Assembly (NCBI GenBank): GCA_030141605.1
Contig: JAQGDQ010001275.1
Span: 1-50,324 of the forward strand
Origin: Tubiluchus corallicola
Taxonomy: Eukaryota > Animalia > Priapulida
Length of the DNA stretch: 50,324 nt
Direction of reading: 5' to 3'
A program made the translations under genes and the position numbers. Position 1 is the stretch's first letter. The number at the start of each line of letters is the position of its first letter. Shown piece by piece: positions 8,257 to 49,276 of this stretch. The notes under the pieces are model-generated. The model was given only the letters and a program-made list of their open reading frames with translations, ran no database searches and was not told the origin of the DNA.

Positions 8257-11200
8257 TTAAATTTTTGATTTTCTGTTTTTAGCAAAATGCAATAACGGTC
8301 GTATTTTCATCTCTACTGGCGAATGTGACGTGATAGAGAAGTGACCGCAATTACTATACCACCAGCCCTCGTTATCTCTACGCTCGACACAACAATTTAC
8401 AGTCGGTAAAATGTCGTTATCCCGATCTAAGGTACTAAAGCGCATTCTATTGTGATGAAACATGTTATCACCACCTATAAAATAAACCAAAAATTAACCA
8501 CAGCAGCAAATACACTTGTACATGCGAGTCTTTATTCTTCCTATAAATTTGTTTACAAACTGCCCTAAACAAGGCCAATGCCACTCAAGGTCATGGCGGA
8601 TATGAGAAATTAATTAATTAATAATCACTGACTTGGAAAGCTTAAGCCCAGTTGGTAAAGTGTTGACACCTCGCCACCTACTTGACATCAAAGGATTCTA
8701 TGCTCAACTCCGAATACCTCGGTCTCTCTGTCCCCCCTTTTGAAGGTTCCCAGTCATGTGACTTAACATATCTGATAGCTTGGCTAACTTGGCTGCTCGA
8801 CTTCACGTCCTCAGTGCCTACCTCTGTCCATTACAAGGGCAGGGTACAACGTCTGCTTATGGAGTTAATAATAGTTATAAAATGTCTTCAACTCATTAAC
8901 TTCCACTTCACAACTTAGAAATACAAGTCCACATAGACCAAACTTCTAACAAGAAACACTAAATACAATATCAGAAGCCAACTTTAGGCACAGTCACATG
9001 GCTTTTACAACCTGTTTTACCTGTTCATACTTTCGCATATAGACGGACTATAGCTATTCGTTACTGCCGTAGTTCTGGTAAACTCATTAAATACTTTTTT
9101 GTTATGCTGGGGGGCTTTTTCACTAAGATAACAACATCGTATTACATTCACTAAACTGTTGATAAGGATTCCGTTAATTAATTTAGACTAAATTATCTTT
9201 ACCTTGTAAAGTAATGCAATAAACTACTATTATTGCTATACATCAGAAAACTATTAGGCTATTATTGGAAAAACGTCATATTTTTACTTAGCTGCAGTAA
9301 TCTTCACCTGTTCATCTATTAATTATTTTTTTATTATTTGTTTCTCTTTGTTGTTCAACCAACCAATTAATTTCAGGTTTATCGCACCAGGTAGAGCCAG
9401 TTAGATTTGTCTTTTTGACATTTTACTTGGACGCATCCATTCCTTGGGGGCAGTATTCTTCACGGAGTGAAACTGATTCCCTTATTTGGGCACATTCACT
9501 ATGTGATTGAAATTTTAAGAAATCCACAAGCATAATGAGACAGTTGATAATTTTGCAAAGAAATGCTAAAAAAATTTTGGCTTTTGTGTCGAATAATTCT
9601 ACGAATTTTGTAACTCGCAAAGTTTCTGTTCGTCTTGCAACGTATTAAAACTAACTGTGAGTAAGAAAACGTAGTTCACTCTTCATTCATATAGCAGATC
9701 ATAAACTACTTACTTGTGTTGCCATGATGACCGTTGATATACAATATATAATCTTCCTGTTCAGGCCCAACCGTGAACTCGTCCCAGATAGAGTAAAAGT
9801 ATTTACCGGAACTAAGAATAACCCGGTCTTGGCGCACCTGCTGTGGCTTGTCTGAAGTGAGTTGATTTATTTTATCGTTACCTGTAATTTTAAAGTAAAT
9901 GACATCAAACCTTATGGAGAAATACCCAGGTGTCAATTTCAAATGTAGGTAAAAATGACACGGTAAAACGGACACAGAAAAAGATGCACAAATGCAAAAG
10001 AGGTAAAAGTGGCACAGAGAAAATAATAAGCTTAATAAAATATGTGCTTAGGTTTAGGGTTAAAATAGACATATGTTTTAGTTATTTTTTCTACCTCTGT
10101 CAAGAAAGTTATGCTTCAACACAGTTTTTGTGTTTGACTGTTTTAGTCTGTTATAGCAGTAAGCTTATTACTCAAAAACTACAGGACAGATTTCCAAGAA
10201 ATTGTTTCTCTTGATTTCCGCAATACTTTCCTTGTGGAAAAGGCGGGTGCTAAAAGGAGCGTTTTGCGCCCGTTCTTTTTTTCTCACAACATCACCGACT
10301 ACAAAAAATGTAGGATACGTAGCAAGGTGGGGGCGCTAGGGTGCGATCATGCAACGGTGAGAGGGTTCAAATTCTTGTAGAGTTCAAAGACTGTTAATTA
10401 ATGATCACCAATCTGACACTAACAATTAATAAAAGTTTTCAAATTACAACAAAATTGTCTAGTCAGAGATCGTCATAGCTGATTTAATTACTACCTACAG
10501 CCTAGAAAAAAGGCCAATGTTGTTATTTAATCTTTTAGCAGATAGATCATTTTGGCTGAAACAGGGGCGACTCTCGAAATGCTGAATGTATTATCGTGAA
10601 AATAACTAGTTTTCTGTATCTTTTATAATGTTGCATGTTTTGATAACGGGAGTGTCATGTTACGCACAACTAATGCAGAGAAAAAGACTTATTCTGGCGT
10701 AGTGCTGCAAATCAAACTCAATTTGATTCTTTGACAAAATTCGTTTATCTTTATTCCATCATGTCGAAAAAGGGATGTCGGCTCAGGAACGCAAAATTAT
10801 GTACAATTCGTAGCTCCTATTCATGAAATTAATTAAAGGTGTAGGGTGCCAGAAGTTTTTTTGCTGCTAGGCACCAGGAGCACTTGCTACGCTACTGAAA
10901 ACATTCGTAAAGCTCTCAAAGGAAGTGTTTAATACTTCTTTTTATTTTCTCGACCAGCAAAAAAATACGAGTTAGCTTTAGTTTTCCTGTACCATTTCTT
11001 ACCTGTGTCATTTCCACTTGTGTTATTGTACCGTCATGTGACGACCATGAAGCCCTCGTGAATGCTGCCAATCATAAATAACTTGATCTCTGCTCTGTTT
11101 AAAACTTAATACTTGTGAATGTTGCATGTGTTGGTGGCAATCACTGTGCTAATTTCAGTGATGATCGTTCATTTTTTAGTTTTTGAAATTTATTATCCTC

Positions 11201-14200
11201 GCCGTGATTTTTAGTTTTGACCCATCAGACTCTAAATATAGCAGTTTAAGAGCATAATAAGGACGAACGTTGTGAGAAAATCTTTGTCATCTGTTAAAGA
11301 ATTTTCGAGATGCCGCGATTAAACAATACAAAACTTACCAAGCCAGAATTCACCATTAAGACTGCCAAAACCATTTTTATACGCATCCCATTTGCGAGCA
11401 AAATCCTCAGATCCATCAAACGTTTTTAGAAACACCTAAATTTGTAGAGAAGTTTAACTAAATGAATTAGCCATTCACGTGTATTATAGAATATCAATTA
11501 ATGAGTAGTGTAATGTGTAGAAAACCTCTTCTAGTAGGATATTTGAAACCACGAATATAATGAATTTTGGTTTTGTTCATTTCAAAAATCAATGCTATAA
11601 AATGTGAAAATCACAGAAAATAAATCTGTGTGTGTGTGTGCGCGTGCATGTGTGAGTGCGTGTGCGAGTGCGTGCATGCATGCGCGCATCCTTGTATGTA
11701 GCTCTGATTGCATATGCGAAATCTTTTACAAGCAGAGGTAGAGAGACTTCTTGGCCGTTTTTAGCTTTAATTTAAGCCGAACTGTGCAAATTATTGTTCT
11801 TAGTCATGTGATTTGCTTGTGCCACTATTTGTGTTTAGAGTAATCCAAGGTCAAGTATTTTTTGTTTAATATGACCCTAGAATTCTATTGGTATACTGTC
11901 TTAAGCAGTAATGATATATATATATAACCCAGCCATTGGGGCAGCAATCCAGCCAGTCCCAAGCCCGGGGTACAGGGAGAGGATTGTCAGGATAAGGCTA
12001 TCAACCCACTGGCATAAAAGCCCTCTTATGCTAAACAAATGCATGGTGAACCAAGATGAAATGTTTACCAGCTGATAGATGATATTAGGCAGATTGGTTA
12101 GAAAGAAAGGTGGTAAAGATAAATATATATATATATATTGTTCCTCTTTTAAGTAATTAAACATTGTACTTTGAATATTGTTTGTTAATATGGACACTAA
12201 TATTATATTATAATAATTCATGCTTCTTTCCGTTTAATTACCATACTACGGACTGCATTAGGGACACCGATGTTAGAGCATTGAATACTTTCAGTAAAAT
12301 TTATGTTTATTTTGGATTATTGCAAATCTTTTTTAGACTGAAGTCTGATGGTGATTATATTCTTCTACCGTCGGGTTCTCGCCGCCAGGGTCTTACCCTA
12401 TCACCCCTGGGCAGACTAAACTAGTGATATCGGTGTGCCAGGGGTCTCGGTTCGAAAACGACATCCTCAAACAGAACTATCAAAGCAAGAAACTTGGAGA
12501 TATTCACCCGCTTAAAAAGAGTGGTACGAGACCCAACCAAATAACTTAGCTTATCTAGTAACTTTGTAAAAATTAGATTGTTACTGTTAAATAAAATTCT
12601 CTTCTCATGACCGAAACATACAGTTGGCTAAACACGAAAAACACAGAAAACAATCTACCCTACTCAAGACAACCCTACCCTACTCAAGACAATCTACCCT
12701 AATCTGCTCAAAGAAACAGAATGTGGCACTTGCATTTATAGGCTTGCAGGTGAAAACAGGTGAATATTCGAATTTAGAGCCGTTCAGAATGCGGCGTTTA
12801 TGAATTTAATGAAACATGATATTTACCGTCCATCCACCCCCGTCTGTCTCCATGTCGCAATAAACATCCATTGGTTCTTCACTAATGCGAGGCTTTATCG
12901 TGTAAATTCCATTTTGGTCAAATCCCAATTCTCTCTGTGCTGCACAGTCTTCTGGTATTTCTACGTAATAAACCATTTAGCATGTAACTGTAGAATAGAT
13001 AACGATTTATGCTTAGCAAAACACTTTCTTAAACCACAAGAAAACACTCTTCAAAATAAAGCTGAAAATTCGTCTTAAAATTTTATATCCGTTACATGCA
13101 GTCTTACTGTATACAGAGCATTATCAGTGAATCTGTATAAAGTTTGTGAATTTGAACTCTCCTGATGACCGTTAGATGCAGTCATTTTAACAGGTCGACA
13201 GGTTAGTAAAATAAAAATGTTGATCATCTAAAATGTACAAAATTACGACTGATAAGCAGAAAAAGATACTTGTATAAGAATTTATAAATCAATCATTCAG
13301 ATAAACCATATGAAATATTGGTGATTATTGTAAAATAAATATTTACAAATTGTATGCACAAGAAAATTCAGGGGACCACTATCAAGAACATTCTCTAAAC
13401 CAGCAGAAAATTTTGAGAAAAGTATTGAAACTACAATTTTTATAGAAGTTTTGAAGAAGGATAAAAAGGGAGCCATGACCACATGATGAGAAGGGAGAGA
13501 GTTTCAAAGTGATGTAGTTCTGAGAAAGAAAGAGTTTTGCCTTACAATTTTGGAAGAAATGTCTAGGAAGAAAAAGTTTATAAGGATGATACCTAGTAAT
13601 GGCTGAAATAAGTCTGATTTTACTGTGACATTCAAATGTGTCAATTAAACATAGCTCAACTCTGGTGATTTTGAAAATCGTAATCAGGTCAGCTCTAAGC
13701 CTTCTAAGTTGTAGTGAGTAATTACTGAATGTATGTAATCATTCCTTATATGGACAACCCGTTTTCGAAGACCTGTCAGGGAACGTGCATGCGGATGATT
13801 TTTAAATAAGTTTAGTTTTCAGTAAGACCAGTATATGCGTTCTGACAAGACAGATTCGAGAACGGATTCCATACAGAGGAGCAATATTCCAGAATTGGTC
13901 TCATGTAAACACAGTCAGTTCTAATGAGAGCACATATGTCTTTCGAGAAAAAAAGACTTAAAATGACTTCACTAACATAAAATACATAACAGGTTATCAA
14001 GGTCCGCAATATAAAAACCGACTAACACCATTACCTTTAGGGTGAGTTTCACAGAATTTTTGCTCCAATACCAATTGCAGAATAGATAGAACAGATTCAA
14101 CCAAATTTAAGGCCTTGGTTAAGTCTTGCTCCTAGAAATCAATGATAAACATGTACATAAAAATGTTTTAACACGTTTAGCTTTGAGTTTTACAGGCAAA

Positions 14201-16507
14201 ATGCAAAAACTTTCAAAAATTCAAAAAGACGTCTGGAGGTCGGTTTTCTAATCTGCAATCCTTTGCAGTTACTGAAGTCTGACATTTGAGTGACAATAGA
14301 TTATCTAACCAACAAGGGATTGAAAACATGTAGAAAAATTTGCCACTATTAAGGTTCTCCAATAGAAATTTTCAAGACATTTCCTAGCCAAACTTTTCGT
14401 TGGATAGTGAGTTTAATTCATAATTGATTCAGAAAGTCAACGATAACTATGTCTGCCTTGTGCAATTTGCATTTTAATTTTTTTCTTGTAGTAATTGTAT
14501 TAATACAGAAGGGTGTCTTTTGTGAAGTGTCATGTTAAATATGTGCAGTATTTTAATTTTATTATTTGCTTTTCTTGAAGTTTCACAGATGTTTTTCCGC
14601 AGGCACTACAGTTTATAGAAAAGTAATGTCCGTATTTTGTCAGTAATGGGGTTCGTCAAGGTGGTTTCCTCTCGTCCCTGGTGTTTTCATTATATATTAT
14701 TGATCTTCCAAAAAAGATATGAACTGTGAGGTCTGCCACGTGTCGCTTATCTCAATGATACACCTATTAATCACTTATTTTGTCCTAACAATCTGTGTTT
14801 AATTGCTCCCTCTACACAGGCATCGCAAAAATTACTTGACTGCTCTAAAGAATCTGATGATGTAGAATAAGAATATGTAATTAATACTTAGAAAACGAAA
14901 TCTTTGTATTCTATTTCAAATGCATTTAGGAATGCTAGTTTTATTAACGTAACTTTGCAAGGAGAACTTACTGAACTCGAACATGAAAAAAATGTCTTGG
15001 GTCACATAATTGATGATAATTGTAAAGACTATGCTGATATTCTAAATCAATTGAGCTTTTTTTATTAAATTTAATTATTATTCTTTGCTGAAGTTTTATT
15101 TTTTGCTTTGCTGATGTGAATACATTCTCGTTAAAACCTATTGTCGATTTTATTGTTCTAACCTCTTATTGTTCTTTTTGTTCTAACATCTGGGTCACTT
15201 TTAGTCTTGACACTATTGGAAAATTAAAAAGGAAAGTTTGTTTACCGTAGAGGAACCTCAGCGTTCGGAATATGTGTCGAAAATGGCCTAATCATTTTAA
15301 AGTGATTTTACGTAAAAGTACTTCTAGCCATCATCAGGGAGTTTCAAGTTCATGCAATGAAATCATACGCAGTTTTAGTCTTAATACTGATATCATTTAA
15401 CTTCGAATATTTTTGCTTATTGGGAATAGAAACTTAACAGCCCTTGTTTACATATATAGCTTACTAATTCTCTGTTCTTTGTGCAAATGTTTGTTTCATT
15501 TGTCTTGTAGTAACATTTTTAATTGTGACTTTTAACTAAACTTTGTACGTTGTTCTATGGCACTTTTTACGTAACGAGATAAACATAAAATGAAATGGCA
15601 ATAAATAACAAGATTTGACTTTTCTTCCTCATTTTGCCTTGGATCGAGGAAAGTTTTTTTCTTGTTCAATTCCGAAAGATGTCCGTATTATCTCGTAAAC
15701 CAACGATGTATCTTCTACACTAAAGGATGAAGAAGCAAAAAAAAGTTTTGCTTCACTAAGCATCGAACCACAACTTGGGAAATCACTGTAACAAAAAACG
15801 GTTCAATTTCTAGGCTTATCAAGAACAATGAACATTTTTCTCACCATTGCGCTCAATCTGTTATCAACAGTCTGCAATCTATCCTCCTGATGTGCAACAA
15901 AGTCATCATTTTCTGCAGCATTTTCTAAGACTATGGAGTTTGTATTCAAGGATGACGTAGCCCAAGCCTTAAAACACAATGATTAATAACATGAAAACTG
16001 CACACAAACATCAAATGGCAAATAAACCAATTGCATATGTATTTGTAATACCAAATTCTGTGACTGGGGTAAAGAAAAAAGCAGACAGCTTTTCAAATAA
16101 GTTTCATAGGTGACATCAACATTTTCTATATTATTTGCTAGTTTTGTCTAATCGGTGAAAGATTGTCATTAAAATATATACTTAATTAATTTACTATTAT
16201 TTTTTAAGCAAATTAAAGCTTCGTATCACAGTTTTGCATTAAAGCAAAATTAAGTTAAGCAATATTTTAGTAGTAGTAGCAGCAGCACCAGCAGCAGTGG
16301 CAGCAGCAACAGTAGTGGTCAAAAATTAGTATCGATAGTAAACATTAAACTTTACACGTGCATGTGCTTATACGTACACTTGCATGTGCACGCACATTAA
16401 ACTATTACATGTGCTTACACGTACACGTATATGTGCACATATATTAAACTATTACATGTACTTACGTAGTTCAAAAGTAAAATCGTCCATACTAAAATTT
16501 TCATCAT
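8257..16507 (-). CDS. FReD copy 2: secreted coiled-coil + fibrinogen-related-domain protein (ficolin/tachylectin-5-like), about 292 aa, 7 exons, apparently intact
   Basis: Exons 16507-16466, 15967-15845, 14131-14035, 12960-12827, 11435-11339, 9881-9714, 8474-8257. All introns are GT-AG with compatible phases (0,0,1,0,1,1); 879 nt with no internal stop. Motifs: signal [80 protein letters not shown]. Confidence 0.88.
8625..8880 (+). mobile_element. Possible tRNA-derived SINE relic in intron 6
   Basis: A-box-like AAGCCCAGTTGGTAAAG at the head of a GC-richer 250-bp block shared with 35355-35610, 47025-47270 and (inverted, partial) 1355-1550. The B-box is unclear. Confidence 0.3.
9926..11035. mobile_element. 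Foldback/MITE-like element in intron 5 with inverted arrays of about 15-bp subrepeats and a nested hAT-type MITE (about 10311-10898)
   Basis: Left arm has AAAAATGGCACAGG-like units plus TTAGGTTTAGGGTTA; right arm has the complementary TTTTCCTGTGCCAT-like units. The nested element has degenerate CAGGGGCGTAGC...GCTACGCCCCTG-type ends. Paralogs at 24245-26195 and 48578-49203. Confidence 0.55.
11922..11986 (+). ncRNA. Twister ribozyme-like motif (P1 type, degenerate copy) heading an element of about 195 bp (11926-12122) flanked by (TA)n
   Basis: T|AA-CCC-AGC...CCAG-TCCCAAGC-CCGG...GGA-GAGGA matches the twister core as I recall it; this copy has mismatches in P4 and T1. Confidence 0.55.
13500..13960 (-). 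mobile_element. Degraded CR1-like LINE ORF2 fragment in intron 3
   Basis: [15 protein letters not shown]; the paralog at 27850-28200/38503-38853 gives LELRRLR. Frameshifted. Confidence 0.65.
14625..15600 (+). mobile_element. Degraded non-LTR reverse-transcriptase fragment in intron 2
   Basis: [21 protein letters not shown] (GVRQG..LSP motif), a degenerate YADD region, VLGHII..NCKD.ADI, an AT-rich 3'UTR and tail; many stops. Confidence 0.75.
16340..16465. repeat. About 47-bp minisatellite (ACATTAAACTATTACATGTGCTTATACGTACAC...) at the start of intron 1
   Basis: About 3 units here, about 5 at 30450-30683 and 41103-41336, one at 441-465. Confidence 0.75.
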
Positions 16508-20272: not shown

Positions 20273-20398
<126 letters not shown>

Positions 20399-22557: not shown

Positions 22558-25500
22558 TTAAATTTTTGATTTTCTGTTTTTAGCAAAATTTAACGGTCGT
22601 ACTTTCAGCTCTAATCCTAATCGTGCATTTAAGTTGCAGGATGCGCAATTATTATACCACCAGCCCGGCTTATTATAATACAACTCGGCACAATTTGTGG
22701 TCGGCGAATTGTCGTTATCCCGGTCTAACGTAGTAAAGCGCATTCCATTGTGATAATCCATACAATCAACTATAAAATTAATCAAAAATTAGGACAGTGA
22801 CAAACGCCGCCTATAATTGCGAGCCTTTATTCTTTCTATAATGTTCTAAACTGCTCTAAACAAGACCAATGCCACTCAAGGTAACTGTTATCTATAATTA
22901 ATTAACTAATAAGCACTGACTCCGAGAGCTTAGGTCTGGTTGACAGGGCTATCAGGTGTCACAAACATAAATCACGAACAAGCGTTATGTAATAAATCTT
23001 TTTCTGTCGAGCTTACTAGCCTGGCTTCACAATAAGCCTATTCAGTGTGAGCACGATTAATGCTCAGCTCGTAACAGATAGTCAGGTGTGCACTTCACAT
23101 GACCAAGCTCTGACAACTCTTCTAATTAACAGCAATAGTATAACACCATCTGGTCACTCATCTGACCAGGTACCAACTTTCATCATTTGCTTTTGGAGTT
23201 GCTAATGATTACCAAATGACTTCAACCTATTTTAACAGAGTCATTAACCGACTCGGAAGTGCAAGTCGATATAGGTCAAACTTCTAACAACAAATGTAAA
23301 GTTCGTATGAGCGTTTAAACTTGCATTCATTATCATTAATCATGTTACCCATGATTAGAGTTGTCAGAGACGTCCACAAAAGTTTACTAAATACGTGAGA
23401 GAAGCTGATGAGTCTTATAATTTAATGAATCATCTGTTCTGACTATCATAATTCATTATTCTGGCTTTGATTATTCATTTGAATTCATTTATCGAATAAT
23501 CAATGTTTTTTTAAATAAAACTTAACATACCTTCTTTAAAAGGACTACAACAAGCACAGGAAAATGTGAATATTTGTTCAGGAAAACTAAATTATATGAC
23601 TAGATTACTATTGATAGGGTTATGTTATTGATACTGTTAATGTTATTTATCATGTGAAATGTTGTTTTTAGAGAAGCGTTTTCGTGGTATATAAAACTAT
23701 GTAAACCTACTAACTCTTCCAAAAAGAAATATAATGCAACAGTGATCAAAATATAATGCTTTTAAAATACTGTCAACAATGACAGTATTCCTCGTGAAAT
23801 GAAACTGATACCCCTGTTTTGACACATTCGTTTGTGATGGAAATTTAGAGGAACCCACAGGCATAGTGAGGCATTGATTGTTTGCAAAAAACAGGAAAAA
23901 TTTAGTGACTTTCCTGTCAAAAAATTCTATTAATTTTGTTACTCATAAAGTTTATGTTCGACAACAATGCATTATAACTAACTGTGAACAACAAAACATA
24001 ATTCACACGTCATTCATATAACAAGTCATAAACTACCTACAATAGGTGCCATGATAACTGTCGACATGCAATATATAATCTTCCTGTTCAGACCCAACCG
24101 TGAACTCGTCGTAGAGTAAGTAGGACATTCCTCTGTATTGATCTATGCGCAGCTGCTGTGGCTTGTCTGAAGTGAGTTGATTTATGTTATCGTTACCTGT
24201 AAGTTGAAACGTTAATGACGTCAAACATTATGGAGAAGTACCTAGTTGTCAATTTTAATGTAGGTAAAAATCACACATGTACAAATAGCACAGGAAATAT
24301 GGCACACTTAGTAAAGTATGTGCTTAGGTTTACAATGGGAGATAATTATTTTAGTTATTTTTACCTCTGCCAGGGAAGTTATGCTTCAACACAGTTTGTT
24401 TGTTTGATTGTTTTAGTCTGTTATAGCAGTAAGCTTATTACTCAAAATCTACAGGACAGATTTCCACGAAATTGTTTCTCTTGATTTCCGCAATACTTTT
24501 TTTGCGGAAAAAGGGGGCATAGGGTGCCAAAGGGGGCGTTTTTCGTTTAGTTTCGTTTTTCTCAAAGCTTGACTACATACAAAAACATCAGAGGCGTAGC
24601 AAGTTGAAGGTTTTAGGGGGTAATTTCCCCCCTAGCACAAGGATGAGAGGCCGCAAAATTCTTCTAGAGTTCAATGGCTGTTAATTATTAATTACTAATC
24701 CGACATTAACAAAACAATTAACAAAAGTTTTCAAACTACAACAAAACTGCCTAGTCAGAAATCGTCGTAGCTAACTTAATTACTATCTGCATCCTAGAAA
24801 AAATCTAATGTTGTTACTTAACATCATGTGTAGGGTGTCGTGCTGTATAGCAGATCGATAATTTTGGGAGAGACAGTGACGATGCTCTAAATGCTGATTG
24901 CATTACTGTAGTGTTCTGTATCTTTCATAATCTTTGCTGAATGTTTAAGTACTGTCATGTTACGTGTAACTAACGTACAGAAAAGAGTTACTCTGCTGCA
25001 GTCTCACAAATCAAACTCAGGTTGATTCTTAGAAAAATCGTTTATCTTTATCCTATCATGTCATGTCGGAAAAAGAAAGTCGAGCTCAGAGACGCAAAAA
25101 CATTAATTTTGTGCCTTCACCCACTGAAACAAATGACCACAACATTAAAAGGGTGGGTCGTCAGAAGTTTTTTTGCCCCCCCCCCATGAAAAACATTCAT
25201 GAAGCTTTCAAAGGGAGTGATTAATTTTTCTTTTTTTCTTAACCAGGACAAACAAGTATGAGTTAGTTCCAGTTTTCCTGAGCTATTTATCCCTTGTCAT
25301 TTTTTCGGAGGTGTTTTTTCTTGTGCCAATTTTTCCTCAGCAATTTATTCCTGAGCAATTTTTCCTGAGCTATTTTTTCTGAGCCATTTATTCCTGTGCC
25401 ATTTATTCCTGAGCTATTTTTCCTGAGCCATTTTTTCTGAGCCATTTATTCCTGAGCTATTTTTCCTGAGCCATTTTTTCTTGAGCCATTTTTTCAGCTA

Positions 25501-30725: not shown

Positions 30726-32239
30726 TGCAGAAAGTATGCAACACATGCTGTCTGTTTGAATGCTTTATGCTTTCTAGACAACTAAGTGCGAGGAGTTGCT
30801 TCTTTTATTTAGGCCTCGGGTTTTGATGTTTAAATAATTAAACACTTATTGGCGCCATAGAAACTCTTGAGTTACAATTTATTTCGCTTTTAATGTGACA
30901 TTTTCCGGTACTACAAGCATAAAATTAATTTTTTATTTCTTGCTTGTTATCAGTTTTCAACTTACAATTGTATGAAAATAAATGAATGCATGATATTGTG
31001 ACGAAGACGCATGCGTGGCTCACTCTACATAATCTGTACCCTTTATTCTATAGTATGACAGTAGTTACAAACAAGTGTTAACGTTACATATCACCCCTAA
31101 AAATATTACAATTTTAAATCCGATTCTTCTGAATTATTTTTCTGCAGATATTTCGACCTTTAAATCTTCACGCCTTTTTCTTTTACCCAATCAGGTTTCG
31201 TTTTGGATCTGGTTCTGACATGTACACTAATTTGGGAAGATTATAAAGAGAAGGTTAATGCATACTGCAATTAGGAGCTAGAGTGATGATCTGGTTGATA
31301 GAGGTGGCTCATCTTCCTGTCTGAGCTTTCTTCTGACCAGACCTAAAGTTTTCCTGTTACCAGCTGTATAGGTAGCTTAGTACAGTTTTTTTTACTTTTC
31401 TGTTATGCTTTCCTTTAATTTTCTATAGAGCCTGTCTTAATTGGTTTAACAAACCTTGCAAATAATCTAAATTTGCTTCAACTGAAGTTAGCAAACAACA
31501 TCTAATAATGTTATTCAATTTAACTGTGCTTTTCTTCTAGTTATGTTGAAACCATTATTAGGCAGCTCTGCCTCGTTTCTGCAAGCTCAAACCACTCCCG
31601 GGTGGCAAGGCGCCACCAGCACTTCAAGATATTATCATAATGGAGATTTATGTTTTAATCGATGGGACTTTATGCAGAGTTAGTCACAAGCCTTTTTCAA
31701 ACATAGTTGAGATGATTAATTCGAGTTCTTGCTTTGCCAGGCAGAAGCGTTGGCAGGGGCGTAGCTAAGAGGGAAGCAAGCTCTGCCCCTGATCACATTT
31801 TTCAAAATAGGCGCCTTTTCAAAAATGAAAATTATTACTTTATTACATTATTTACTTCATTTGGCCAACTTGCTCACCCGTGCTTTGAATGAACATGCAT
31901 TTACGTAACCCACTGTTGGCGGATTGGATCGAAATTGTTTTACAGTGATATACGTCTGCTAATTAGTCAATTAACCAATTAGTTAAAGAATTATTTTTTT
32001 TAAATAATTAAAAATTAATTAAATTATTGTAAATTATAATCAAGCGCTTCATGTAACCACGTTATTTAAATACACGTGCATTAGTACTTAAGTGTTACCT
32101 GTCACTAACCTCAGCACAAGGGTAAGATGTAAAGAATAAGCATAATCGAATTAACGCGTTGCATACATGTATTGATGTCAAGGACACGAGTTACTCCGCC
32201 CAATGGACCAATCGGCATTCAGCTGAATTTGTTAAGTCG

Positions 32240-34994: not shown

Positions 34995-37900
34995 TTAAAT
35001 ATTTGATTTTCTGTTATTAGCAAAATTTAACGGTCGTACTTTCAGTTCTACTCGTGAATAACTATTGTAAACGCAGGTTCCGCATCCATTATACCACCAG
35101 CCCACGTGATGATGATACAACACGGCACAATTTCCCTTCGGCCAATTGTCATTATCCCGATCTAACGTAGTAAAGCGCATTCCATTGTTAGCATACAGGC
35201 AACCACCTATAAAATTAACCGAAAATTAACCACAGCAGCAAAAACCACTTGTACATGCGAGTCTCTATTCTTTCTATAAATTTGTTTACAAACTGCCCTA
35301 AACAAGGCCAATGCCACTCAAGGTCATGGCTGATATGAGAAATTAATTAATTAATAATCACTGACTTAGTGAGCTTAAGCCCAGTTGGTAAAGTATCCAC
35401 ACCTCGCCACCTACTTGACATCAAAGGATTCTATGCTCAACCCCAATTCCGACTACATCGGTCTGTCAGCCCCCCCCCTTTGAAGGCTCCCAGTCATGTG
35501 ACTTAACATACCTGATAGCTTGGCTAACTTGGCTGCTCGACTTCATGTCCTCAGTGCCTACCTCTCTCCATTACAAGGGCAGAGTACAACGTCTGCTTAT
35601 GGAGTTAATAATAGTTATCAAATGTCTTCAACTCATTAACATCTACTTCACAACTTAGAAATACAAGTTGACATAGACCAAACTTCTAACAAACAACACT
35701 AAATACAATGTCCGAAGCCAACTTTAGGCAAAGTTAACAAAGGTTAACAAAGTTTACCTGTTCATACTTACGTGTGTAGACGGATTGTAGCTATTTGTTA
35801 CTGCCGCAGTTCTAGTAAACTCATTAAATACTATTTTGTTATCCTGGGGGGGGGGTTCAACAAAAACCTTCACCAAGTTAACAACATCGTTATTACATTC
35901 GTTTAACCGCTAATAACGATGTTACTAAGTTAGAGATGGTTACAAAAACCTATCACTAAGTTAACGACAGCGTTATTATATTCGCTTAACTGTTAATAAC
36001 CGCGTCGTTAATAAGGATTCCGTTAATTAATTTAGACTAAGTTATCTTTACCTTGTAAAGTAATGCAATAAACTCCTATTTTCCATTTTCTGAGCCATTT
36101 ATTCCTGAGCTATTTTTCCTGAGCCATTTTTTCTTGAGCCATTTTTTCAGCTATTTTTTCTGAGCCATTTATTCCTGAGCTATTTTTCCTGTGCCATTTT
36201 TTCTGATCTATTTTTTCCTGGCCATTTTTTCCTGAGCCATTTTTTCCTGAACCATTTTTTCCTGATCTATTTTTTTCTGTGACATTTTTTCATGAACCAC
36301 TTTTTCCTGCGCCATTTTTTCTTGAGCCATTTTTTCCTGAACGATTTTTTCCTGAGCTATTTTTTTTCTGAGCCATTTTTTCCTGAGCCATTTTTTCCTG
36401 AGCTACTTTTTCTGAGCCATTTATTCCTGAGCCATTTTTTCCTGAGCTATTTTTTCCTGAGCCATTTTTTCCTGAGCCATTTTTTCTTGAGCCATTTTTT
36501 CCTGTGCTATTTTTTCCTGAGCCATTTTTTCCTGAGCCATTTTTTCCTGAGCTACTTTTTCTGAGCCATTTATTCCTGAGCCATTTTTTCCTGAGCCATT
36601 TTTTCCTGAGCTACTTTTTCTGAGCCATTTATTCCTGAGCCATTTTTTCCTGAGCTATTTTTTCCTGAGCCATTTTTTCCTGAGCCATTTTTTCCTGAGC
36701 CATTTTTTCCTGTGCTATTTTTTCCTGAGCTACTTTTTCCAGTGCCATTTTTCCTGTGTGATTTTTTCCTGAGCTATTTTTTCCCGTGTCATTTTTACTT
36801 GTGTAATTTTGTTTTGGGTGCCATTTTTACCTGTGTCAATTTAATTTTATATGGCGATCATGGAGCACTCAAGAATTAAAGATTTTTCGAGATGCACCGA
36901 TTAAACAATAGAAGACTTACTTGGCATAATAGCAAAAATAGGTGACCTGCTAGAAATTATATTCGCATCGTCAACAGTTTGTAGTTATTAATTAACAGAC
37001 TAAAAGACACAGCATTTTTGTGCTCTTACCAAGCCAGAATTCACCATTAAGACTGCCAAAACCAATCTTATACGCATCCCAATTGTGACCAAAATTCTCA
37101 AATCCATAATTCCTTCTTTGAAACACCTAATTTTATATAGAAGTATAACTCAATGAATTAACCCTTCACATGTATTGTAGAATATCAGTTAATGAGTAGT
37201 ATAATATGTAGAAGACCTCTTCTAGACGTAGGTATTTTAGATTTCCCATTTCTCAAAAATTTATACTAACGTGTTGGGCATGTTAATTTTAAGTTAAATT
37301 AACAAGAAACGATTGTAATATCTCCAGGTAATCTTGTAGAATATAAATGAACATATACAAAAATATTTGTGTAACTCTACTTTGTGTATTAAACTGTTAA
37401 TGAATTTTTTTTAGCAACAAAGGATAAAATATCTATTGTCATCTATAAATGTACTTCTCAGTTTTGCTTTCTTTGTATATACAGGGGCATATAGAGGGCG
37501 ATACTATCTCTTCAACACCCTCTTATATGTTTTCAATAGTAGAGACACGATATTTACCGTCCATCCACCCCCGTCTGTCTCCATGTCGCAATAAACTTCT
37601 ATTGGTTCTTCACTAATGTGAGGCTTTATCGTATAAGTTCCATTTTGGTCAAATCCCAATTCTCTCAGTGCTGCACAGTCTTCTGGTAATTCTGCACAAT
37701 AAACCAATTATTATGTAACTTATATCACACGATCTATGCTTAAAAACTATATATCATATTTTCTTAAAGCACAAGAAAACACTCTTCATAAAGCTGAAAA
37801 GTCGTCTTCAAATGTTATATCCCACCCATGCTGTGTTACTGTATATGGAGCATTACCAGTGAATCTGTATAAAACTTGTGAATTTGAACTCTCCTGATGA

Positions 37901-40900
37901 CCGTTAAATGCAGCCATTTTAACGGCAAGTCGATTGAAACAAGTTAGATAACGTTGCCTAAAACTTTTTATAATAATTAGCGCATTCGTAACACACACTT
38001 CGCTATCTAAGCTTATGATTAAATTACTTCATATTATTGCCAATAAGATCAATAAGAGCAACAAGGCACATCCGATGCATAAAATCACAGTCACTTTCAA
38101 CTTTCCGGCAGCAACTTAAGGAGCCCCACAAATTAATAAACTGAAACTATAGATCATTTTAAACTTTATAAAATTTCAAGACGAATTTTTTAAGCTTTAT
38201 ATAAATGGGAGGTTTTACTGTATTTTGAGAAGCCTTACTGATTAGTACAATTAAACTTTTGATCATCTGAAAATAAATGAAATTACGACTGCTAAGCAGA
38301 AAAAGACACTTGTTTGAGAATCTATAAATCAGCCATTCAGATCAAGCACACAAAATGTTAGTGACTATTATAAAATATATATTTCCAAATTGTAGGTACA
38401 TGCAATTTCAAGAGGCTACTACAAAGAGCATCACTAAACTAATGAAAATTTTTCAGATATTACCGAAATTACAATTTTTAGAGAAAACTAAAGAGGGAGC
38501 CATGACAGCATGATGAGAAGGAAGAGAATTCCAGAGCAATGTAATTCTGAGAAAGAAAAAGTTTTGCTTTACGGTTTTGTTACACTGAGGAAGAAAAAGT
38601 TTTTAAAAAAGGTGACCCCTCGTAGTGGTCGAACTAAGTGTGAATTTTCTGCGACGTTCAGAGTCATCAATTAAAGCTAGATCAACTCTTGCGATTTTGA
38701 AAACCATAATCAGACCAGTTTCTAAGCCTTCTAAGTTCCAAATGGTAATTACTAAGTATACGTGTTCGTTCCTTGCATGGTAATCGTTTTCGAAGTCCTT
38801 CCAAGCAACCTACGTATGGGTGATTTTTGCAAAAGTTCACATGGCTCTCAATAAAAACACTTAAAATGACTTCAGTAACATAAAATCCATAACAAGTTAT
38901 CAAAGTCCAAACCATAAGAAGCGAATAATACTATTACCTTTAGGGTGAGTTGCACAGGATTTTTGCTGCAATACCAGTTCCAGAATAGATTCAACCAAAC
39001 TTAAAGCCTTGGTTAAGTCTTGCTCCTAGAAGTCAATGATAAAGATGCACATAAATATGTTTTAACACGTTTAGCTTTGAGCTTTACTGAGCAAAATGCA
39101 TAAACTTTTAAAAATTCAAAAAGACGTCTGAAGGTCGTTTTCCAACCTGCAAGCCTTTGCAGTTAATGAAGTCTGGCTTGAGTGCCAATAGATTATCTAA
39201 CCAACAAGGGATTGAAAACATGCAGATAATATTGTGGCTATTAAGGTTCACTATTAGGAATTCTCAAGACATTTCCTAGCCTAACTTTTCGTTGGATAGT
39301 GAGTTTAATCCGTAATTATATTGATTCAAAAGCAAATGATAACTATGTTTGTCTTCTGCAATGTACATTACAGTTTTATTTCCTTTGTTAATACTATAGG
39401 GTGTTTTTTGTGAAGTGCCATGTGAAAGATAAGAAAGTTTTTTAATTTTATTATTTGCTTTTCTTGAAGTTTCACAGATTTTTTTACTGCCTGCACCACA
39501 GTTTATAGAAAAATAATGTCTATATTTTGTCAGTAATGGGGTTCGTCAAGGCGGTGTCCTCTCGTCCCTGGTGTTTTCATTATATATTATTGATCTTCCA
39601 AAAAAAGATATGAACAGTGAGGTCTGCCACATGTCGCTTAAGTGGTACACCTATTAATCACTTATTTTATGCTAACGACCTGTGTTTAATTGCTCCCCCT
39701 ACACAGGCATCACAAAAATTACTTGACTATTCTAAAGAATGTGATGATGTAGAATAAGAATATGTAATTAATACTTAGAAAACGAAAACTTTGTATTCTA
39801 TTCCAAATGCATTTAGGAATGCCTGTTTTATTAATGTAACTTTGCAAGGAGAACCTACTGAACTCGAACATGAAAAAAATGTGTTAGGTCACATAATTTA
39901 TGATAATTGTAAAGACGATGCTGATATTTTAAATCAATTGAGATTTTTTAATTTTAGTTATTATACTTTGCAGAAGTTTTAATTTTTGCTTTGCTGATGT
40001 GAAACATTCTCTTTAAAATCTATTGTCGATTTTATTGTTCTAACCTCTTATTGTTCTTTTTGTTCTAACTTCCTGTTATTGGTCTAACCTCTGGGTCACT
40101 TTTAATTTTGACACTATTGGGAAATTGAAAGGGAAATTTTGTTTACCGTATTGAAACCTCAGCATTTAGAATATGTGACGTAAATGGCTGTAATTATTTT
40201 AAAGTTATTTTACGTAAAAATACATTTAGCCTACGTCAGCAAGTCTTAAATTCAAACAATGAAGTTATAGTTTGATTCTTAATGCTGACATTATTTTAAC
40301 TTCTAATATTGTTGCCCATTGAGAAGTTACACTTACTAATCCTTTTCTTATGCATTTAGCTGTTCATTGTTCTTTGTGTAAACATTGATTTTATCTGTCT
40401 TTTAGTAAATATTTTTAATTGAGATTCTTAAGTAATCTTTGTTTATTATTCTATGGTACTTTTGATGTACTGAAGTAAACATAAAATAAAATGACAATAA
40501 ATAATAAAAGACTTGACTTTTCTTCCTCCTTTGCCTTGAAGCGAGGAAAGTTTCTATCTTGTTCATATCAGAAAGATGGTTTTTTGCTCACCGTTGTCTT
40601 CAACCCGTTTGCAGGTATTTCAACAGTCTGCAATCTATCATCCTGATGTGCAACAAAGTCATCATTTTCCAAGACTATGGAGTTTTTATTTGGAAGTGAC
40701 ATAGCCCAAGCCTTAAACACAATGATTAATACACGTCAAAAAACTGCACACAAACATCAAATGCCAAACAAAACAATCGTATATGTTTATAATACGACAT
40801 TCTAACTGGAGTAAAGAAAAAAAGCAGATGCTTTTCAAGTAAGTTTCATATGTGGCGTCAACGTTTTCTATATTATTTGCTAGTTTTGTCTAATCTGTGA

Positions 40901-41378
40901 ACGATTGTCATGAAAATGTATACTTAATTAATTCACTATTGATTTTTAAGCAAATTAAAGCTTCGTATCATAGTTTTGCATTAAAGCAAAATTAAGTTAA
41001 ACAATATTTTAGTAGTAGTAGCAGCAGCACCAGCAGCAGTAGCAGCAACAACAGTAGCGATAGTAGTAGTAATTTCGACATGTACAAAAATTAGCATCGA
41101 AGATAAACATTAAACTGTACACGTACATGTGCTTATACGTACACTTACACGTACACTTGCATGTGCACGTACATTAAACTATTACAAGTGCTTATACGTA
41201 CCTGTATATGTGCACGTACATTAAACCAGTACATGTGCTTATGCATACACGTATATGTACACGTACATTAAACTATTACAAGTGCTGATACGTACACATA
41301 TATGTGCACATATATTAAACTATTACATGTACTTACGTAGTTCAAAAGTAAAGTCATCCACACTATAAACTTCATCAT
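34995..41378 (-). CDS. FReD copy 4: chimeric gene lacking exon 6 (in-frame product of about 230 aa if exon 5 splices to exon 7); may be a pseudogene
   Basis: Exons 41378-41337, 40711-40592, 39025-38938, 37691-37558 and 37126-37030 (same as copy 3), plus 35206-34995 (closest to copy 1). No GND.INQLTSD exon lies between 35207 and 37029. The phase-1 donor and phase-1 acceptor are compatible. Confidence 0.7.
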
Positions 41379-45997: not shown

Positions 45998-46346
45998 AAT
46001 TAGAACAACACAACTTTTATCAAAATTTTAAAATTTACAACTGTTTAAAAAACATGTCCAAACGTTTCAACTGCAGCCTGCAGTCATCACGAGTAACAGA
46101 CTTATACAAACAAACAACCAGTTTTACAGGTAGGCCCTATAGACAAGAAAATATACACACTAATATATGTATTTGGCTTTCTTGTAACTACATGAGCAGT
46201 GCTTAATTTTCTGTACTGTAGGTTCTGCCTGTAAAACTGTTTGTTTATTTATATACGTCTATCACTGATGATGACTGCAGTTGAAACGTTTGGGACACGT
46301 TTTTTTAAATAGTTGTAAACTGAAGTTATGTTGTTTTAATAATAAA
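45998..46346. mobile_element. Penelope-like inverted repeat with hammerhead-like core
   Basis: CTGATGATGACTGCAGTTGAAACGTT at 46265, with an inverted arm at about 46000-46130. Confidence 0.5.
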
Positions 46347-46664: not shown

Positions 46665-49276
46665 TTAAATTTTTGATTTTCTGTTATTAGCAAAATATAA
46701 CGGTCGTACTTTCAGCTCTGTTCCCAAAACATAATTGATAACGCATTTTGCGCATCGATCATACCACCAGCCAATGCTATTATAGACCTCGGCACAATTT
46801 CTGGTCAGATGATTGTCATTATCCCGATCTAGGGTACTAAAGCGCATTCCATTGTGATAAATCATGCAATTACCTATAAAATTAACCAAAAATTTGCTAA
46901 GCAACAAAAACCACTTGTACATGCGAGTCTTTATTCTGCCTATAAATTTGTTTACAAACTGCCCTAAACAAGGCCAATGCCACTCAAGGTAATGGCTGAT
47001 ATGAGAAATTAATTATTTAATAATCACTGACTTAGTGAGCTTAAGCCCAGTTGGTAAAGTATCCACACCTCGCCACCTACTTGACATCAAAGGATTCTAT
47101 GCTCAATTCCGACTACCTCAGTCTCTCTGTCCTTCCTTTTTGAAGGCTCCCAGTCATGTGACTTGACATATCTGATAGCTTGGCTAACTTGGCTGCTCGA
47201 CTTCATGTCCTCAGTGCCTACCTCTGTCCATTACAAGGGCAGGGTACAACGTCTGCTTATGGAGTTAATAATAGTTATCAAATGTTTTCAACTCATTAAA
47301 ATCCACTTCACGACTTAGAAATACAAGTCCATATAGACCAAACTTCTAACAAGCAACACTAAATACAATATCAGAAGCCAACTTTAGGCATAGTCACATG
47401 GCTTTTACAACCTGTTTTAGCTGTTCATACTTATGTGTGTAGACGGACTATAGCTATTTGTTACTGCCGTAGTTCTGGTAAACTCATTAAATACTATTTT
47501 TTTATCCTGGGGGCGGTTTCACAAAACCTTCACTAATTTGCAACATCGTTATTACATTCGCTTAACCGCTAATAACGATGTTGCAAAGTTAGTGAAGGTT
47601 TCATAAAGCCTTCACTAAGTTAACGACATCGCTATTACATTCCCTTAACTGCTAATAATGAAGTCGTTAAGTTAGTGATGGTTTCACTAAGCCTTCACTA
47701 AGTGAACTACATCATTATAACATTCATTTAACTGTTAATAGTGATGTTGCTAAGTTAGAGATGGTTACACAAAGCCTTCACTAAGTGAACGACATCGTTA
47801 TTATATTCGCTTAACTGTTAATAAGGACTTCGTTAATAAGGATTCGGTTAATTAATTTAGGCTAAATTATCTTTACCTTGTAAAGTAATGCAATAAACTA
47901 CTATTTTTGCTATAGATCAGAAATCAATTAGGCTATTATTGGAAAAACGTCATATTTTACTTAGCTGCAGTATTTTTTACCTCTCAATGCTGTTCAATCA
48001 AATCTTTATACTGAATAAATTAATTTCAGGTTTATCGTGCAAAGTAGAACCGCAGTTAGATTTTCCTTTTTGACATTTCACTTGGACGCATCCATTCGTT
48101 GGGGACAATATTCCTTACGGAATGAAACTGATACCTTTGTTTGGGCACATTCATTGTGTTATGAAAATTTAAAGAAACACATAAGCATAATGAGACAGTT
48201 GATGCTTTTGCTAAAGAAAAGCTAAAAAAAATTAGCGGCTTTCGTGTCTAACAATTCTACGAATTTTGTAATTCATAAAGTTTATGTTCGACTTGCAACG
48301 TATTAAAACTGTGAATAAGAAAACGTAGTTCACACTTCATTCATATAGCAGATCATAAACTACTTACTATAGTTGCCATGATGACCGTCGACATGCAATA
48401 TATAATCTTCCTGTTCAGACCCAACCGTGAACGTGTCGTAGAGAGAGTACGACTTTTTACCAGGACTAGGTTCCCGATCTATGCGCAGCTGCTGTTGCTT
48501 GTCTGAAGTGAGTTGATTTATTTTATTGTTACCTGTAATTTTAAAGTAAATGACATCAAACATTATGGACAAATACCCAGGTGTCAATTTCAAATGTAGG
48601 TAAAAAAAGCACGGTAAAATGGACACAGAAAAAAGATGGCACAATGGCACAAGAGGTAAAAATGGCACAGGAAAAAAGTCACAAATGCAAAAGAGGTAAA
48701 AATGGCACAGAGAAAATAATAAGCTTAATAAAATATGTGCTTAGGGTTAGGGTTACAGCAGATAGATCATTTTGGCTGAAACAGGGGCGTCTCTCTAAAT
48801 GCCGAATGTATTATCGTGAAAATAACTAGTTTTCTGTATCTTTTGTAATGTTGCATGTTTTGATAACGGGACTGTCATGTTACGCACAACTAATGCAGAG
48901 AAAAAGACTTATTCTGGCCTAGTACTGCAAATCAAACTCAGGGTGATTCTTTGACAAAATTCGTTTATCTTTATTCCGTCATATCGAAAAGGGAAGTCGG
49001 GCTCAGGAACGCAAAATTGTGTACAATTCGTAGCTGCTATTCATGAAATTAATTAAAGGCGTAGGGCGCCAGACGTTTTCTGCTGCTAGGCACCAGGAGC
49101 ACTTACTACGCCCCTGAAAAGCTCTCAAAGGGAGTGTTTAATAATTCTTTTTTATTTTCTCGACCAGCAAAAAAATACGAGTTAGTTCTAGTTTTCTTGT
49201 ACTAGCCAAAACCAATCTTATATGCATCCCAATTGTGAGCAAAATCCTCAGATCCATTATACCTTTTTTGAAACAC
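46665..49276 (-). pseudogene. FReD copy 5 (exons 5-7 in window, exons 1-4 expected beyond the right edge); exon 5 truncated with a premature stop
   Basis: Exon 7 (46873-46665) and exon 6 (48532-48368) are open. Exon 5 (49276-49205) reads [24 protein letters not shown] then TAG (49204-49202). SLNGEFWL and the donor are removed by a deletion of about 370 bp relative to copy 2. Confidence 0.82.
47507..47830. repeat. Tandem array of self-palindromic units of about 83 bp in intron 6
   Basis: CCTTCACTAA anchors at 47527, 47609, 47692 and 47775; fewer units at 35860-36015 and 9115-9165. Confidence 0.8.

What the first reader, a model, noticed from the sequence alone, without database searches (positions are those of the whole stretch)
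8257..46873. Tandem family of secreted FReD lectin-like genes with hypervariable last-exon loops
Seen: five exon-7 sequences keep the scaffold (MRF[ST]T.DRDND, NC, GWWY..C, E[LM]K[VI]RP) but differ strongly in between. After DND they read NWPDG / ILPTV / NSPTT / NWPKG / NHLTR; after NC they read AVLYNHHA / CVERRDNE / AELYYNKP / AVLYHHHV / AEVYNSI. Copies 2 and 5 share only 9 of 33 residues between DND and E[LM]K, yet their adjacent intron (8480-9110 vs 46880-47510) aligns almost base for base by eye, and exon 4 is nearly invariant. Known: these loops form the Ca2+/ligand-binding P-subdomain of ficolins and tachylectin-5, and invertebrate FReD families are often expanded. Inference: a recognition-molecule repertoire (immune, or possibly allorecognition or gamete recognition) under diversifying selection.
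Basis: partly seen in the sequence, partly recalled or inferred. Interest (0 to 1): 0.85.

Follow-up and report, generated by a model that had tools for sequence, protein, structure and literature searches.

The report
Fast-evolving lectin cluster with rebuilt pocket
An invertebrate carries a tandem cluster of fibrinogen-domain genes, only two of them intact here, whose last exon lacks most of the usual sugar-binding pocket and changes amino acids several times faster than neutral DNA around a kept calcium-binding motif, so the proteins are likely secreted recognition molecules in an arms race, probably with microbes or parasites.

Summary
Five last exons of fibrinogen-related-domain (FReD) genes keep the scaffold and differ at 17-29% of bases in 9 of 10 pairs, against 6-10% in the flanks. 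My site model supports positive selection: about 30% of codons at omega about 8 (p = 2e-7). It survives other trees, double-hit codons and dropped copies.

Three corrections. (1) Only copies 2 and 3 are intact; copies 1, 4 and 5 have lost essential exons or a splice site, and a sixth copy runs off the left edge. (2) The binding subdomain is 25 residues shorter than in FIBCD1. The calcium aspartates and the disulfide remain, but the stretch carrying three of the five acetyl-pocket residues is replaced by an 11-residue hypervariable linker, and the pocket His is lost, so ficolin-type acetyl binding is unlikely. (3) Expression and function are untested.

Copy 1's exon 7 recurs almost unchanged in two public DNA samples, so it is a germline variant. 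The best reading is a birth-and-death family of secreted recognition proteins. Expanded invertebrate FReD families are known; this short-pocket, strongly selected form was not found in my searches, and earlier scan notes held nothing similar. Verdict: new variant of a known kind.

The parts
466..507 (-). Copy 0, exon 1 (signal-peptide exon); the rest of this copy lies left of the window
   Evidence: 12 of 14 residues identical to exon 1 of copies 2 and 3, GT donor
735..3424 (+). Copy 1: inverted fragment holding only exon 4 (1173-1306) and exon 7 (1689-1900). Exons 1-3 are absent and exons 5-6 are deleted at about 1352-1356; splicing exon 4 to exon 7 shifts frame. Disabled.
   Evidence: self-BLAST, exon search, frame test, junction
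8257..16507 (-). Copy 2: intact 7-exon gene, 292 aa. Exons 16466-16507, 15845-15967, 14035-14131, 12827-12960, 11339-11435, 9714-9881, 8257-8474
   Evidence: AG/GT at all junctions, open frame with one terminal stop; exons 4, 5 and 7 pass the PF00147 cut-off, exon 6 scores 20.6 against 22 bits
8257..8474 (-). Copy 2 exon 7 (shortened P subdomain plus last strand and basic tail); the most divergent exon 7; three cysteines
22558..30725 (-). Copy 3: intact 7-exon gene, 282 aa. Exons 30684-30725, 29939-30058, 28285-28372, 26905-27038, 26377-26473, 24041-24196, 22558-22769
   Evidence: AG/GT at all junctions, open frame
22558..22769 (-). Copy 3 exon 7; four cysteines
   Evidence: (PF00147 positions 142-186 of 221)
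25433..30912 (.). Segment duplicated at 36086-41565 (5,480 bases, 5 differences, all within 30472-30895)
34995..41378 (-). Copy 4: exons 1-5 identical to copy 3 (41337-41378, 40592-40711, 38938-39025, 37558-37691, 37030-37126), no exon 6, and an exon 7 (34995-35206) closest to copy 1's. In frame (230 aa) but lacks about 52 core FReD residues; likely disabled.
   Evidence: junction at about 36085 at the end of a 15-base minisatellite
36086..36796 (.). 15-base minisatellite in intron 5 of copy 4 (sister array 25314-26143 in copy 3); its end is the copy-4 deletion junction
46665..49276 (-). Copy 5: exon 5 cut short (49205-49276; donor lost, in-frame stop directly after the cut), exon 6 48368-48532, exon 7 46665-46873; exons 1-4 lie right of the window. 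Likely disabled.

Best explanation
This is a tandem birth-and-death family of seven-exon genes for predicted secreted FReD proteins whose last exon keeps the calcium-binding aspartates and core disulfide, has replaced most of the acetyl-sugar pocket with an 11-residue linker, and shows positive selection on the loops around that site, so each intact copy likely binds a different foreign target, probably on microbes or parasites. Shown: gene anatomy, two intact and three disabled copies, the 25-residue shortening, the selection signal, and germline sharing of one exon 7 with two other samples. Inferred: secretion (hydrophobic first exon), oligomerisation through the amphipathic exon-3 helix, a new disulfide between alignment columns 3 and 45 that would staple the short linker, clustering of the variable residues around the old S1 site, and the immune role. 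New copies likely arise by unequal crossover and duplication, diversify in exon 7 (less in exons 5-6), and die by internal deletion.
For: Exon 7 differs at 36-59 of 204-207 bases in 9 of 10 pairs, against 7-9% in intron 6 and 6-10% in the 3' flank (copies 1, 2, 4, 5). Codon positions 1+2 vary in 58 of 136 columns against 55 of 356 flank columns (p = 8e-10) and 44 of 158 intron columns (p = 0.01), while four-fold sites of invariant residues vary in 1 of 8. M2a vs M1a 2dL = 30.8, p = 2e-7, omega2 8.3, p2 0.30; M8 vs M8a p = 3e-8. The result holds on 4 of 4 trees tried, under F1x4, with double- and triple-hit codons allowed (p = 3e-4 to 2e-3), and without copy 2 or copy 4. omega2 is 6.7-12.8 at the grid points (0.3-0.6) inside the supported range of neutral depth, and 5.2 at 0.8 just outside it. 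All exon-7 length differences are multiples of three and no exon 7 has an internal stop. The 13 sites with P > 0.9 map to the calcium loop, the loop after Tyr405, the Asn413 position and the new linker (FIBCD1 numbering). Expanded, tandem, truncation-rich FReD families with immune roles are described in mosquito and snail (passages).
Against: Only five sequences, three of them from disabled copies. The codon models are my own code and the site calls are naive empirical Bayes. Recombination can inflate site models. The exon's neutral depth (0.27-0.74) excludes the 3' flank's 0.20, so part of the gap is older exon lineages or a constrained 3' UTR. Copies 1 and 4 differ at only 19 of 207 exon-7 bases despite 8% flanks. 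Two/three-fold sites of invariant residues vary in 4 of 18. Third positions overall vary in 24 of 68 columns. Loss of the pocket weakens the lectin analogy. Nothing here links the genes to immunity: no expression, tissue or binding data. Anopheles FBN9 showed no positive selection (abstract), so selection is not a family-wide rule.
Confidence: 0.6

Rival explanations
1. Gamete or self/non-self recognition ligand that works like ascidian v-Themis: a polymorphic secreted FReD protein on the egg coat or body surface, read by a linked receptor.
For: v-Themis proteins are fibrinogen-like, polymorphic and occur as linked duplicates (passages). Loss of the sugar pocket would suit a protein-protein role. 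Strong selection is expected.
Against: [quoted passage not shown] Copy 1's exon 7 is identical over 199 bases in X1 and differs once in 151 bases in X3, unlike highly multi-allelic loci, though copy 1 is disabled. Frequent gene death in a tandem array fits defence families better (inference).
Confidence: 0.13
2. The exon-7 types are old lineages kept while gene conversion homogenised the introns and 3' flanks; the apparent speed is mostly age, not selection since duplication.
For: The flanks are star-like at 6-10%, yet exon 7 ranges from 9% (copies 1, 4) to 28%. The exon's neutral depth estimate is 0.47 against 0.20 for the 3' flank. Copy 4 joins a copy-3 5' half to a copy-1-type exon 7.
Against: Without positive selection the exon needs a neutral depth of 1.2, and that model is 15 log-likelihood units worse. 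Silent sites in conserved codons lying between the loops are barely changed (1 of 8 four-fold sites). Tree discord between exon and flanks was not significant (p = 0.15-0.19).
Confidence: 0.1
3. A secreted non-immune arms-race protein, for example a gland, mucus or prey-directed product; other FReD proteins have been recruited to such roles (recalled, not tested).
For: Signal exon, small size, basic tail, loss of the canonical pocket, strong selection.
Against: No tissue data and no similarity to a specific named family: the best hits are generic FReD proteins that match only the first two thirds of exon 7.
Confidence: 0.09
4. Relaxed constraint: after losing its pocket the domain drifts, and the family is decaying.
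For: 3 of 5 copies are disabled. Exon 4 has pN close to pS. Copy 2 departs from the VFQ[RK]R motif and has an odd cysteine count in exon 7.
Against: Drift cannot push replacement changes above the neutral rate (M8 vs M8a p = 3e-8). The scaffold residues are invariant and all exon indels keep frame.
Confidence: 0.06
5. The variants are somatic hypermutation products or assembly errors.
For: A 5,480-base segment is duplicated with 5 differences, which could be a false duplication. Somatic diversification is reported for snail FREPs (recalled).
Against: Copy 1's exon 7 recurs in two other runs from two studies. Changes concentrate at codon positions 1 and 2 and spare the scaffold.
Confidence: 0.02

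Closest known systems
FIBCD1 (PDB 4M7F), ficolins and tachylectin-5A (PDB 1JC9): acetyl-binding FReD lectins (PMC3908420, passages read)
   Same: FReD scaffold; calcium aspartates at the Asp393/Asp395 positions; Cys401-Cys414 pair; Tyr405 position kept in 4 of 5 copies
   Different: 11 residues instead of 36 between the Cys414 position and the last strand, so the stretch holding Tyr431, Ala432 and Trp443 is gone; His415 position is Ala or Gly in all five; two extra cysteines in 4 of 5; no collagen region or membrane helix in the gene models
Anopheles and Drosophila FREP/FBN families (PMC1242226, PMC2429915, passages; PMC2288592, abstract)
   Same: Lineage-specific tandem expansion of short FReD-only proteins with variable P-domain loops and many truncated members
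   Different: Those papers ascribe many C-terminal truncations to annotation error; here the shortening is internal, shared by all five copies, and followed by the normal last strand. FBN9 showed no positive selection.
Biomphalaria FREPs (PMC10875847, passages)
   Same: Secreted FReD proteins under duplication, loss, conversion and exon shuffling
   Different: [quoted passage not shown]
Ciona v-Themis-A/B/B2 (PMC7018956, PMC8849226, passages)
   Same: Fibrinogen-like, highly variable, duplicated
   Different: v-Themis varies between alleles and is nested antisense in a polycystin-like s-Themis gene; here the variation shown is between paralogs and no host gene is seen
Sea urchin Sp185/333 clusters (PMC5103432, abstract and outline)
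   Same: Unstable immune-type gene cluster with segmental duplications, deletions and short repeats at breakpoints (one such case here, copy 4)
   Different: Unrelated protein; that paper has a section headed 'There are no pseudogenes', whereas most copies here are disabled

Membership tests
FReD / Fibrinogen_C (PF00147) proteins | Match to PF00147 above the gathering score | tested here: met
   7 of 8 FReD exon translations pass 22 bits alone (five exon 7s, exons 4 and 5 of copy 2); exon 6 scores 20.6
FReD / Fibrinogen_C (PF00147) proteins | Full-length P subdomain | tested here: not met
   Exon 7 matches profile positions 141-186 of 221 only; linker of 11 residues against 36 in FIBCD1
Ficolin / tachylectin-5 / FIBCD1 acetyl-binding lectins | Calcium site: two aspartates plus main-chain carbonyls | tested here: met
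   Both aspartates invariant in 5 of 5 copies (numbering); sequence only
Ficolin / tachylectin-5 / FIBCD1 acetyl-binding lectins | Cys401-Cys414 disulfide linking the calcium and S1 sites | tested here: met
   Both cysteines invariant in 5 of 5; bond inferred
Ficolin / tachylectin-5 / FIBCD1 acetyl-binding lectins | S1 pocket residues Tyr405, His415, Tyr431, Ala432, Trp/Tyr443 | tested here: not met
   Tyr405 kept in 4 of 5, His415 in 0 of 5; the other three lie in the deleted stretch
Ficolins | Collagen-like N-terminal region | tested here: not met
   No Gly-X-Y run in the gene models; exons 2 and 3 have no Pfam match
Ficolin / tachylectin-5 / FIBCD1 acetyl-binding lectins | Binds N-acetylated ligands as an oligomer | not testable with these tools
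   needs protein
Biomphalaria-type FREP (IgSF + FReD) | One or two IgSF domains | tested here: not met
   No Pfam family on exons 2-3 of copy 2; the region is about 70 aa
Invertebrate FReD-only expanded families (FBN-type) | Signal peptide, short N-terminus, single C-terminal FReD, tandem paralogs | tested here: met
   signal peptide judged by hydrophobicity, no dedicated predictor run
Invertebrate FReD-only expanded families (FBN-type) | Expression in immune tissue or induction by challenge | not testable with these tools
   no RNA holder listed
v-Themis | Nested antisense in the first intron of a polycystin-1-like s-Themis gene | tested here: inconclusive
   No such frame seen by eye among 118 frames of 65 aa or more; shorter exons or a host gene beyond the window are not excluded
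v-Themis | Multi-allelic polymorphism between individuals at one locus; present in the egg coat | tested here: inconclusive
   Copy 1's exon 7 nearly identical in two other samples; alleles of the intact copies could not be read; location not testable

The most novel reading that the evidence does not exclude
This lineage has thrown out the ficolin sugar pocket and rebuilt the FReD head as a small calcium- and disulfide-braced scaffold with three or four antibody-like hypervariable loops encoded by one exon. It reshuffles these heads between gene bodies by recombination in the flanking introns, with disabled copies serving as a reservoir of heads (copy 4 is a copy-3 body joined to a copy-1-type head). 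That would be a germline variable-receptor system on a FReD scaffold in a poorly studied invertebrate, possibly a priapulid.
Probability: 0.17. Interest if true: 0.8.

Novelty: new variant of a known kind. Interest (0 to 1): 0.5.

Why it matters
Invertebrate FReD expansions are usually called immune lectins by analogy with tachylectin-5. Here the analogy fails at the pocket itself, while selection is strong and lies where the pocket was. If copies 2 and 3 are expressed and bind different targets, they give a natural two-protein test of how a conserved sugar-binding fold is turned into a variable recognition surface. They would also be a handle on immunity or self-recognition in an animal group with little such data. 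If the role is ordinary defence, this is a clean but modest case of birth-and-death evolution.

Tried and rejected
No whole genome is held, so other family members in this assembly could not be counted. Expression: no RNA holder listed. Run X6 (RNA only by guess) laid 4 short pieces on 7800-20200, all outside the exons; this is no evidence either way. X5 laid only short, mostly divergent pieces.

Structure: exon 7 of copy 3 folded alone with a 67-row alignment gave pLDDT 63 and pTM 0.35, and Foldseek found no PDB match. The model says nothing on the proposed extra disulfide or on surface clustering. The whole spliced domain was not folded.

Close relatives: none in two searches with the exon-7 alignment (410 and 48 hits), one with exon 4 (2 generic hits), the 1.84-billion representative library, JGI metagenome contigs (29 loci, 34-67% identity over parts) or the ESM Atlas (generic FReD clusters). 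These searches are weak for multi-exon eukaryote genes. The organism could not be placed.

Tree discord between exon 7 and flanks: not significant. A diversity-generating-retroelement-like mechanism was rejected by eye: several variable codons keep a third-position A, and no template or intact reverse transcriptase was seen. Alternative last exons of one gene were rejected: each exon 7 sits in its own duplicated gene unit with its own upstream exons. My first 330-base intron alignment overstated copy 1 and copy 3 distances (13%, 38%) because it ran past deletion or non-homologous borders; one search corrects this for copies 1, 2, 4 and 5. Earlier scan notes: none near, by sequence or by words. 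PMC13596317 (passages) did not bear on the question.
Full report
Observation. A six-frame motif scan finds five exon-7 frames with the quoted scaffold, each matching Pfam Fibrinogen_C above its cut-off. Copies 2 and 5 share 9 of 33 residues between DND and E[LM]K (column table). Their adjacent intron differs at 48 of 630 bases and their exon 7 at 58 of 204 (p = 5e-13). A sliding window over copies 2, 4 and 5 peaks at 0.28-0.44 inside exon 7. Most flank windows are under 0.15, with two local exceptions up to 0.3 near indels. Exon 4 is 37-39 of 44 identical between independent copies, so it is conserved but not invariant.

Anatomy. Self-comparison and exon searches give a seven-exon gene: a hydrophobic 14-codon first exon, an acidic linker exon, an exon with an amphipathic helix (hydrophobic moment 0.43-0.44) and one cysteine, then four FReD exons ending in a basic tail. 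Copies 2 (8257-16507) and 3 (22558-30725) have AG/GT at every junction and open frames of 292 and 282 aa. The others are damaged. Copy 1 is an inverted fragment with exons 4 and 7 only, which do not join in frame. Copy 4 has exons 1-5 identical to copy 3, inside a 5,480-base duplicate with 5 differences; it lacks exon 6 and ends in an exon 7 closest to copy 1's. Its junction lies at the end of a 15-base minisatellite. Copy 5 has lost the end and donor of exon 5 and reads into a stop. A sixth copy starts at 466-507 and leaves the window. So 2 of the 5 copies with an exon 7 are intact.

Selection. Exon 7 differs at 36-59 bases of 204-207 in nine pairs and at 19 of 207 between copies 1 and 4. Intron 6 differs by 6.8-9.1% and about 1 kb of 3' flank by 6.4-10.1% among copies 1, 2, 4 and 5 (copy 3 left out because it shares only about 170 bases of that intron). 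Pairwise counts give dN/dS above 1 in 8 of 10 pairs (range 0.67-2.16). By columns, codon positions 1+2 vary in 58 of 136, third positions in 24 of 68, four-fold sites of invariant residues in 1 of 8, their two/three-fold sites in 4 of 18, the 3' flank in 55 of 356 and the last 170 intron columns in 44 of 158. My own codon models on 69 of 71 alignment columns (two single-sequence columns dropped) give M2a over M1a 2dL 30.8 (p = 2e-7; omega2 8.3, 30% of sites) and M8 over M8a p = 3e-8. The result holds on four trees, under F1x4, with multi-base codon changes allowed (p = 3e-4 and 1e-3), and without copy 2 or copy 4. The exon's neutral tree length is about 0.47, with a supported range of about 0.27-0.74 read from a ten-point profile, against 0.20 for the 3' flank and 0.38 for the nearest intron. 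So the exons may be somewhat older than the flanks, or the flank is a constrained 3' UTR (AATAAA near +400 in 4 of 5 copies). Age alone would need a length of 1.2 and fits far worse. Exons 5 and 6 also show pN above pS in all pairs of independent copies, with in-frame indels in exon 6; I did not model them.

The binding site. From the FIBCD1 alignment and the structure paper (PMC3908420, passages), alignment columns 18 and 20 are the calcium ligands Asp393 and Asp395, and columns 27 and 42 are Cys401 and Cys414. All four are invariant. The acetyl pocket needs Tyr405, His415, Tyr431, Ala432 and Trp443. Here Tyr405 is kept in 4 of 5 copies and His415 in none. Only 11 residues, not 36, lie between Cys414 and the last strand, so the segment with the other three is missing. 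In the 265 proteins then held, 116 matched both flanking motifs (132 domains): 130 had 26 or more residues there and two unnamed fragments had 15 and 16. Of 51 further proteins, 27 domains matched, one with 16 residues (a cluster mate of one of those two) and 26 with 26 or more; 5 of 29 metagenome loci matched, with 30-43 residues. The 13 sites with P(omega > 1) above 0.9 are column 5 (next to the Lys381/TL5A Arg186 position), 22 and 25 (calcium loop, where FIBCD1 binds by main-chain carbonyls), 32 and 35 (loop after Tyr405), 41 (Asn413 position) and seven in the new linker (44-53). By homology they ring the old S1 site; this is inference. Cysteines at columns 3 and 45 are present together in four copies and absent together in copy 2, which suggests an added disulfide on the strength of one event. 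A fold of exon 7 alone was too poor to test either point.

Other samples. Four of six listed runs hold part of copy 2's region, from two studies. X1 lacks the window's base at several places (for example 8511 and 8635; 1236 and 1272) and holds 0.53 of the words, so it is probably not the source animal, though the tool warns that it may be. X1 has a 199-base contig identical to 1680-1878, and X3 (another study) a 151-base contig with one difference. Copy 1's exon 7 is therefore a shared germline variant. X1 also has a 187-base exon-7 contig with 30 differences and 8 gaps against copy 1, a pattern that matches none of the window's copies, so more variants likely exist. One X1 contig crosses copy 1's deletion point but with fewer than the 31 bases the tool requires on one side, which is a hint only. 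Other contigs in X1 and X3 leave the window's sequence at 1352. Contig depth is not copy number and I do not use it. Tables were cut (16 of 118 pieces shown).

How it likely works. The gene unit duplicates in tandem. Copies diverge fast in the loops that face the ligand, while the calcium motif and disulfide that brace those loops are held fixed. Copies die by internal deletion, and recombination can join one copy's body to another's last exon, as in copy 4. The intact products would be secreted, probably oligomerise through the exon-3 helix, and present a variable face in place of the acetyl pocket. A defence role is the most likely (0.6), because tandem FReD-only expansions with many broken members are described in mosquito and snail immunity (PMC1242226 and PMC10875847, passages). 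A v-Themis-like role (0.13) is the main functional rival. v-Themis sits in the first intron of its receptor gene and varies between alleles (PMC7018956 and PMC8849226, passages), and neither was seen here, within the limits given.

Novelty. FReD expansion and loop variation are known (also PMC2429915, passages). A family-wide internal loss of the S1 pocket combined with strong positive selection was not found in the listings of seven literature searches. I read passages or abstracts of nine papers and no supplements, and the library lacks most subscription journals, so prior description is not excluded. Anopheles FBN9 showed no positive selection (PMC2288592, abstract). Earlier unreviewed notes on other pieces of this genome guess a priapulid. 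I did not confirm this: no Priapulus protein was among the 120 of 410 hits listed, and one search listed no paper on priapulid FReDs. Verdict: real, new variant of a known kind, interest 0.5.

Noticed in passing
window 1-382: A long (GCA)n/(AGT)n repeat lies in intron 1 of copy 0; copies 2-4 have only a short version of it at the same place (16282-16318, 30367-30405, 41020-41058).
   Followed up: no
window 508-690, 16508-16690 and the matching stretches of copies 3 and 4: About 150 bases upstream of the start codon are almost invariant in four copies. A 149-base piece just upstream is duplicated in copies 2 and 4 (16602-16750/16904-17052; 41473-41621/41775-41923). Likely a shared promoter.
   Followed up: partly
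exon 6: 9714-9881, 24041-24196, 48368-48532; exon 5: 11339-11435, 26377-26473: A second variable patch with in-frame indels in exon 6, and pN above pS in exons 5 and 6; may be a second selected surface.
   Followed up: partly
window 11339-11435 and 8257-8474: Copy 2 departs from the VFQ[RK]R motif at the start of exon 5 and has three cysteines in exon 7, including an adjacent pair.
   Followed up: no
last 10 codons of each exon 7, e.g. 8260-8286: A short lysine/arginine-rich tail after the FReD is nearly invariant in all five copies; it could bind acidic surfaces.
   Followed up: no
window 20275-20396; 25314-26143; 36086-36796: A perfect (AG)61 run between copies 3 and 2 and a 15-base minisatellite at copy 4's breakpoint recall the repeats at deletion and duplication edges in sea urchin Sp185/333 clusters (abstract).
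   Followed up: partly
window 13382-14021, 27950-28277, 38603-38930: Decayed frames in intron 3 that look by eye like the end of a LINE reverse transcriptase; not searched.
   Followed up: no
window 2223-2550 and matching 3' flanks (21892-22219, 34346-34687, 45993-46327): An imperfect inverted repeat of about 330 bases in the 3' flank of several copies, possibly a small transposon.
   Followed up: no
proteins P0181, P0263, P0311: Three unnamed fragments from public assemblies (two clusters) also have a short linker (15-16 residues) in the FReD P subdomain; whether they are kin or independent shortenings is open.
   Followed up: partly
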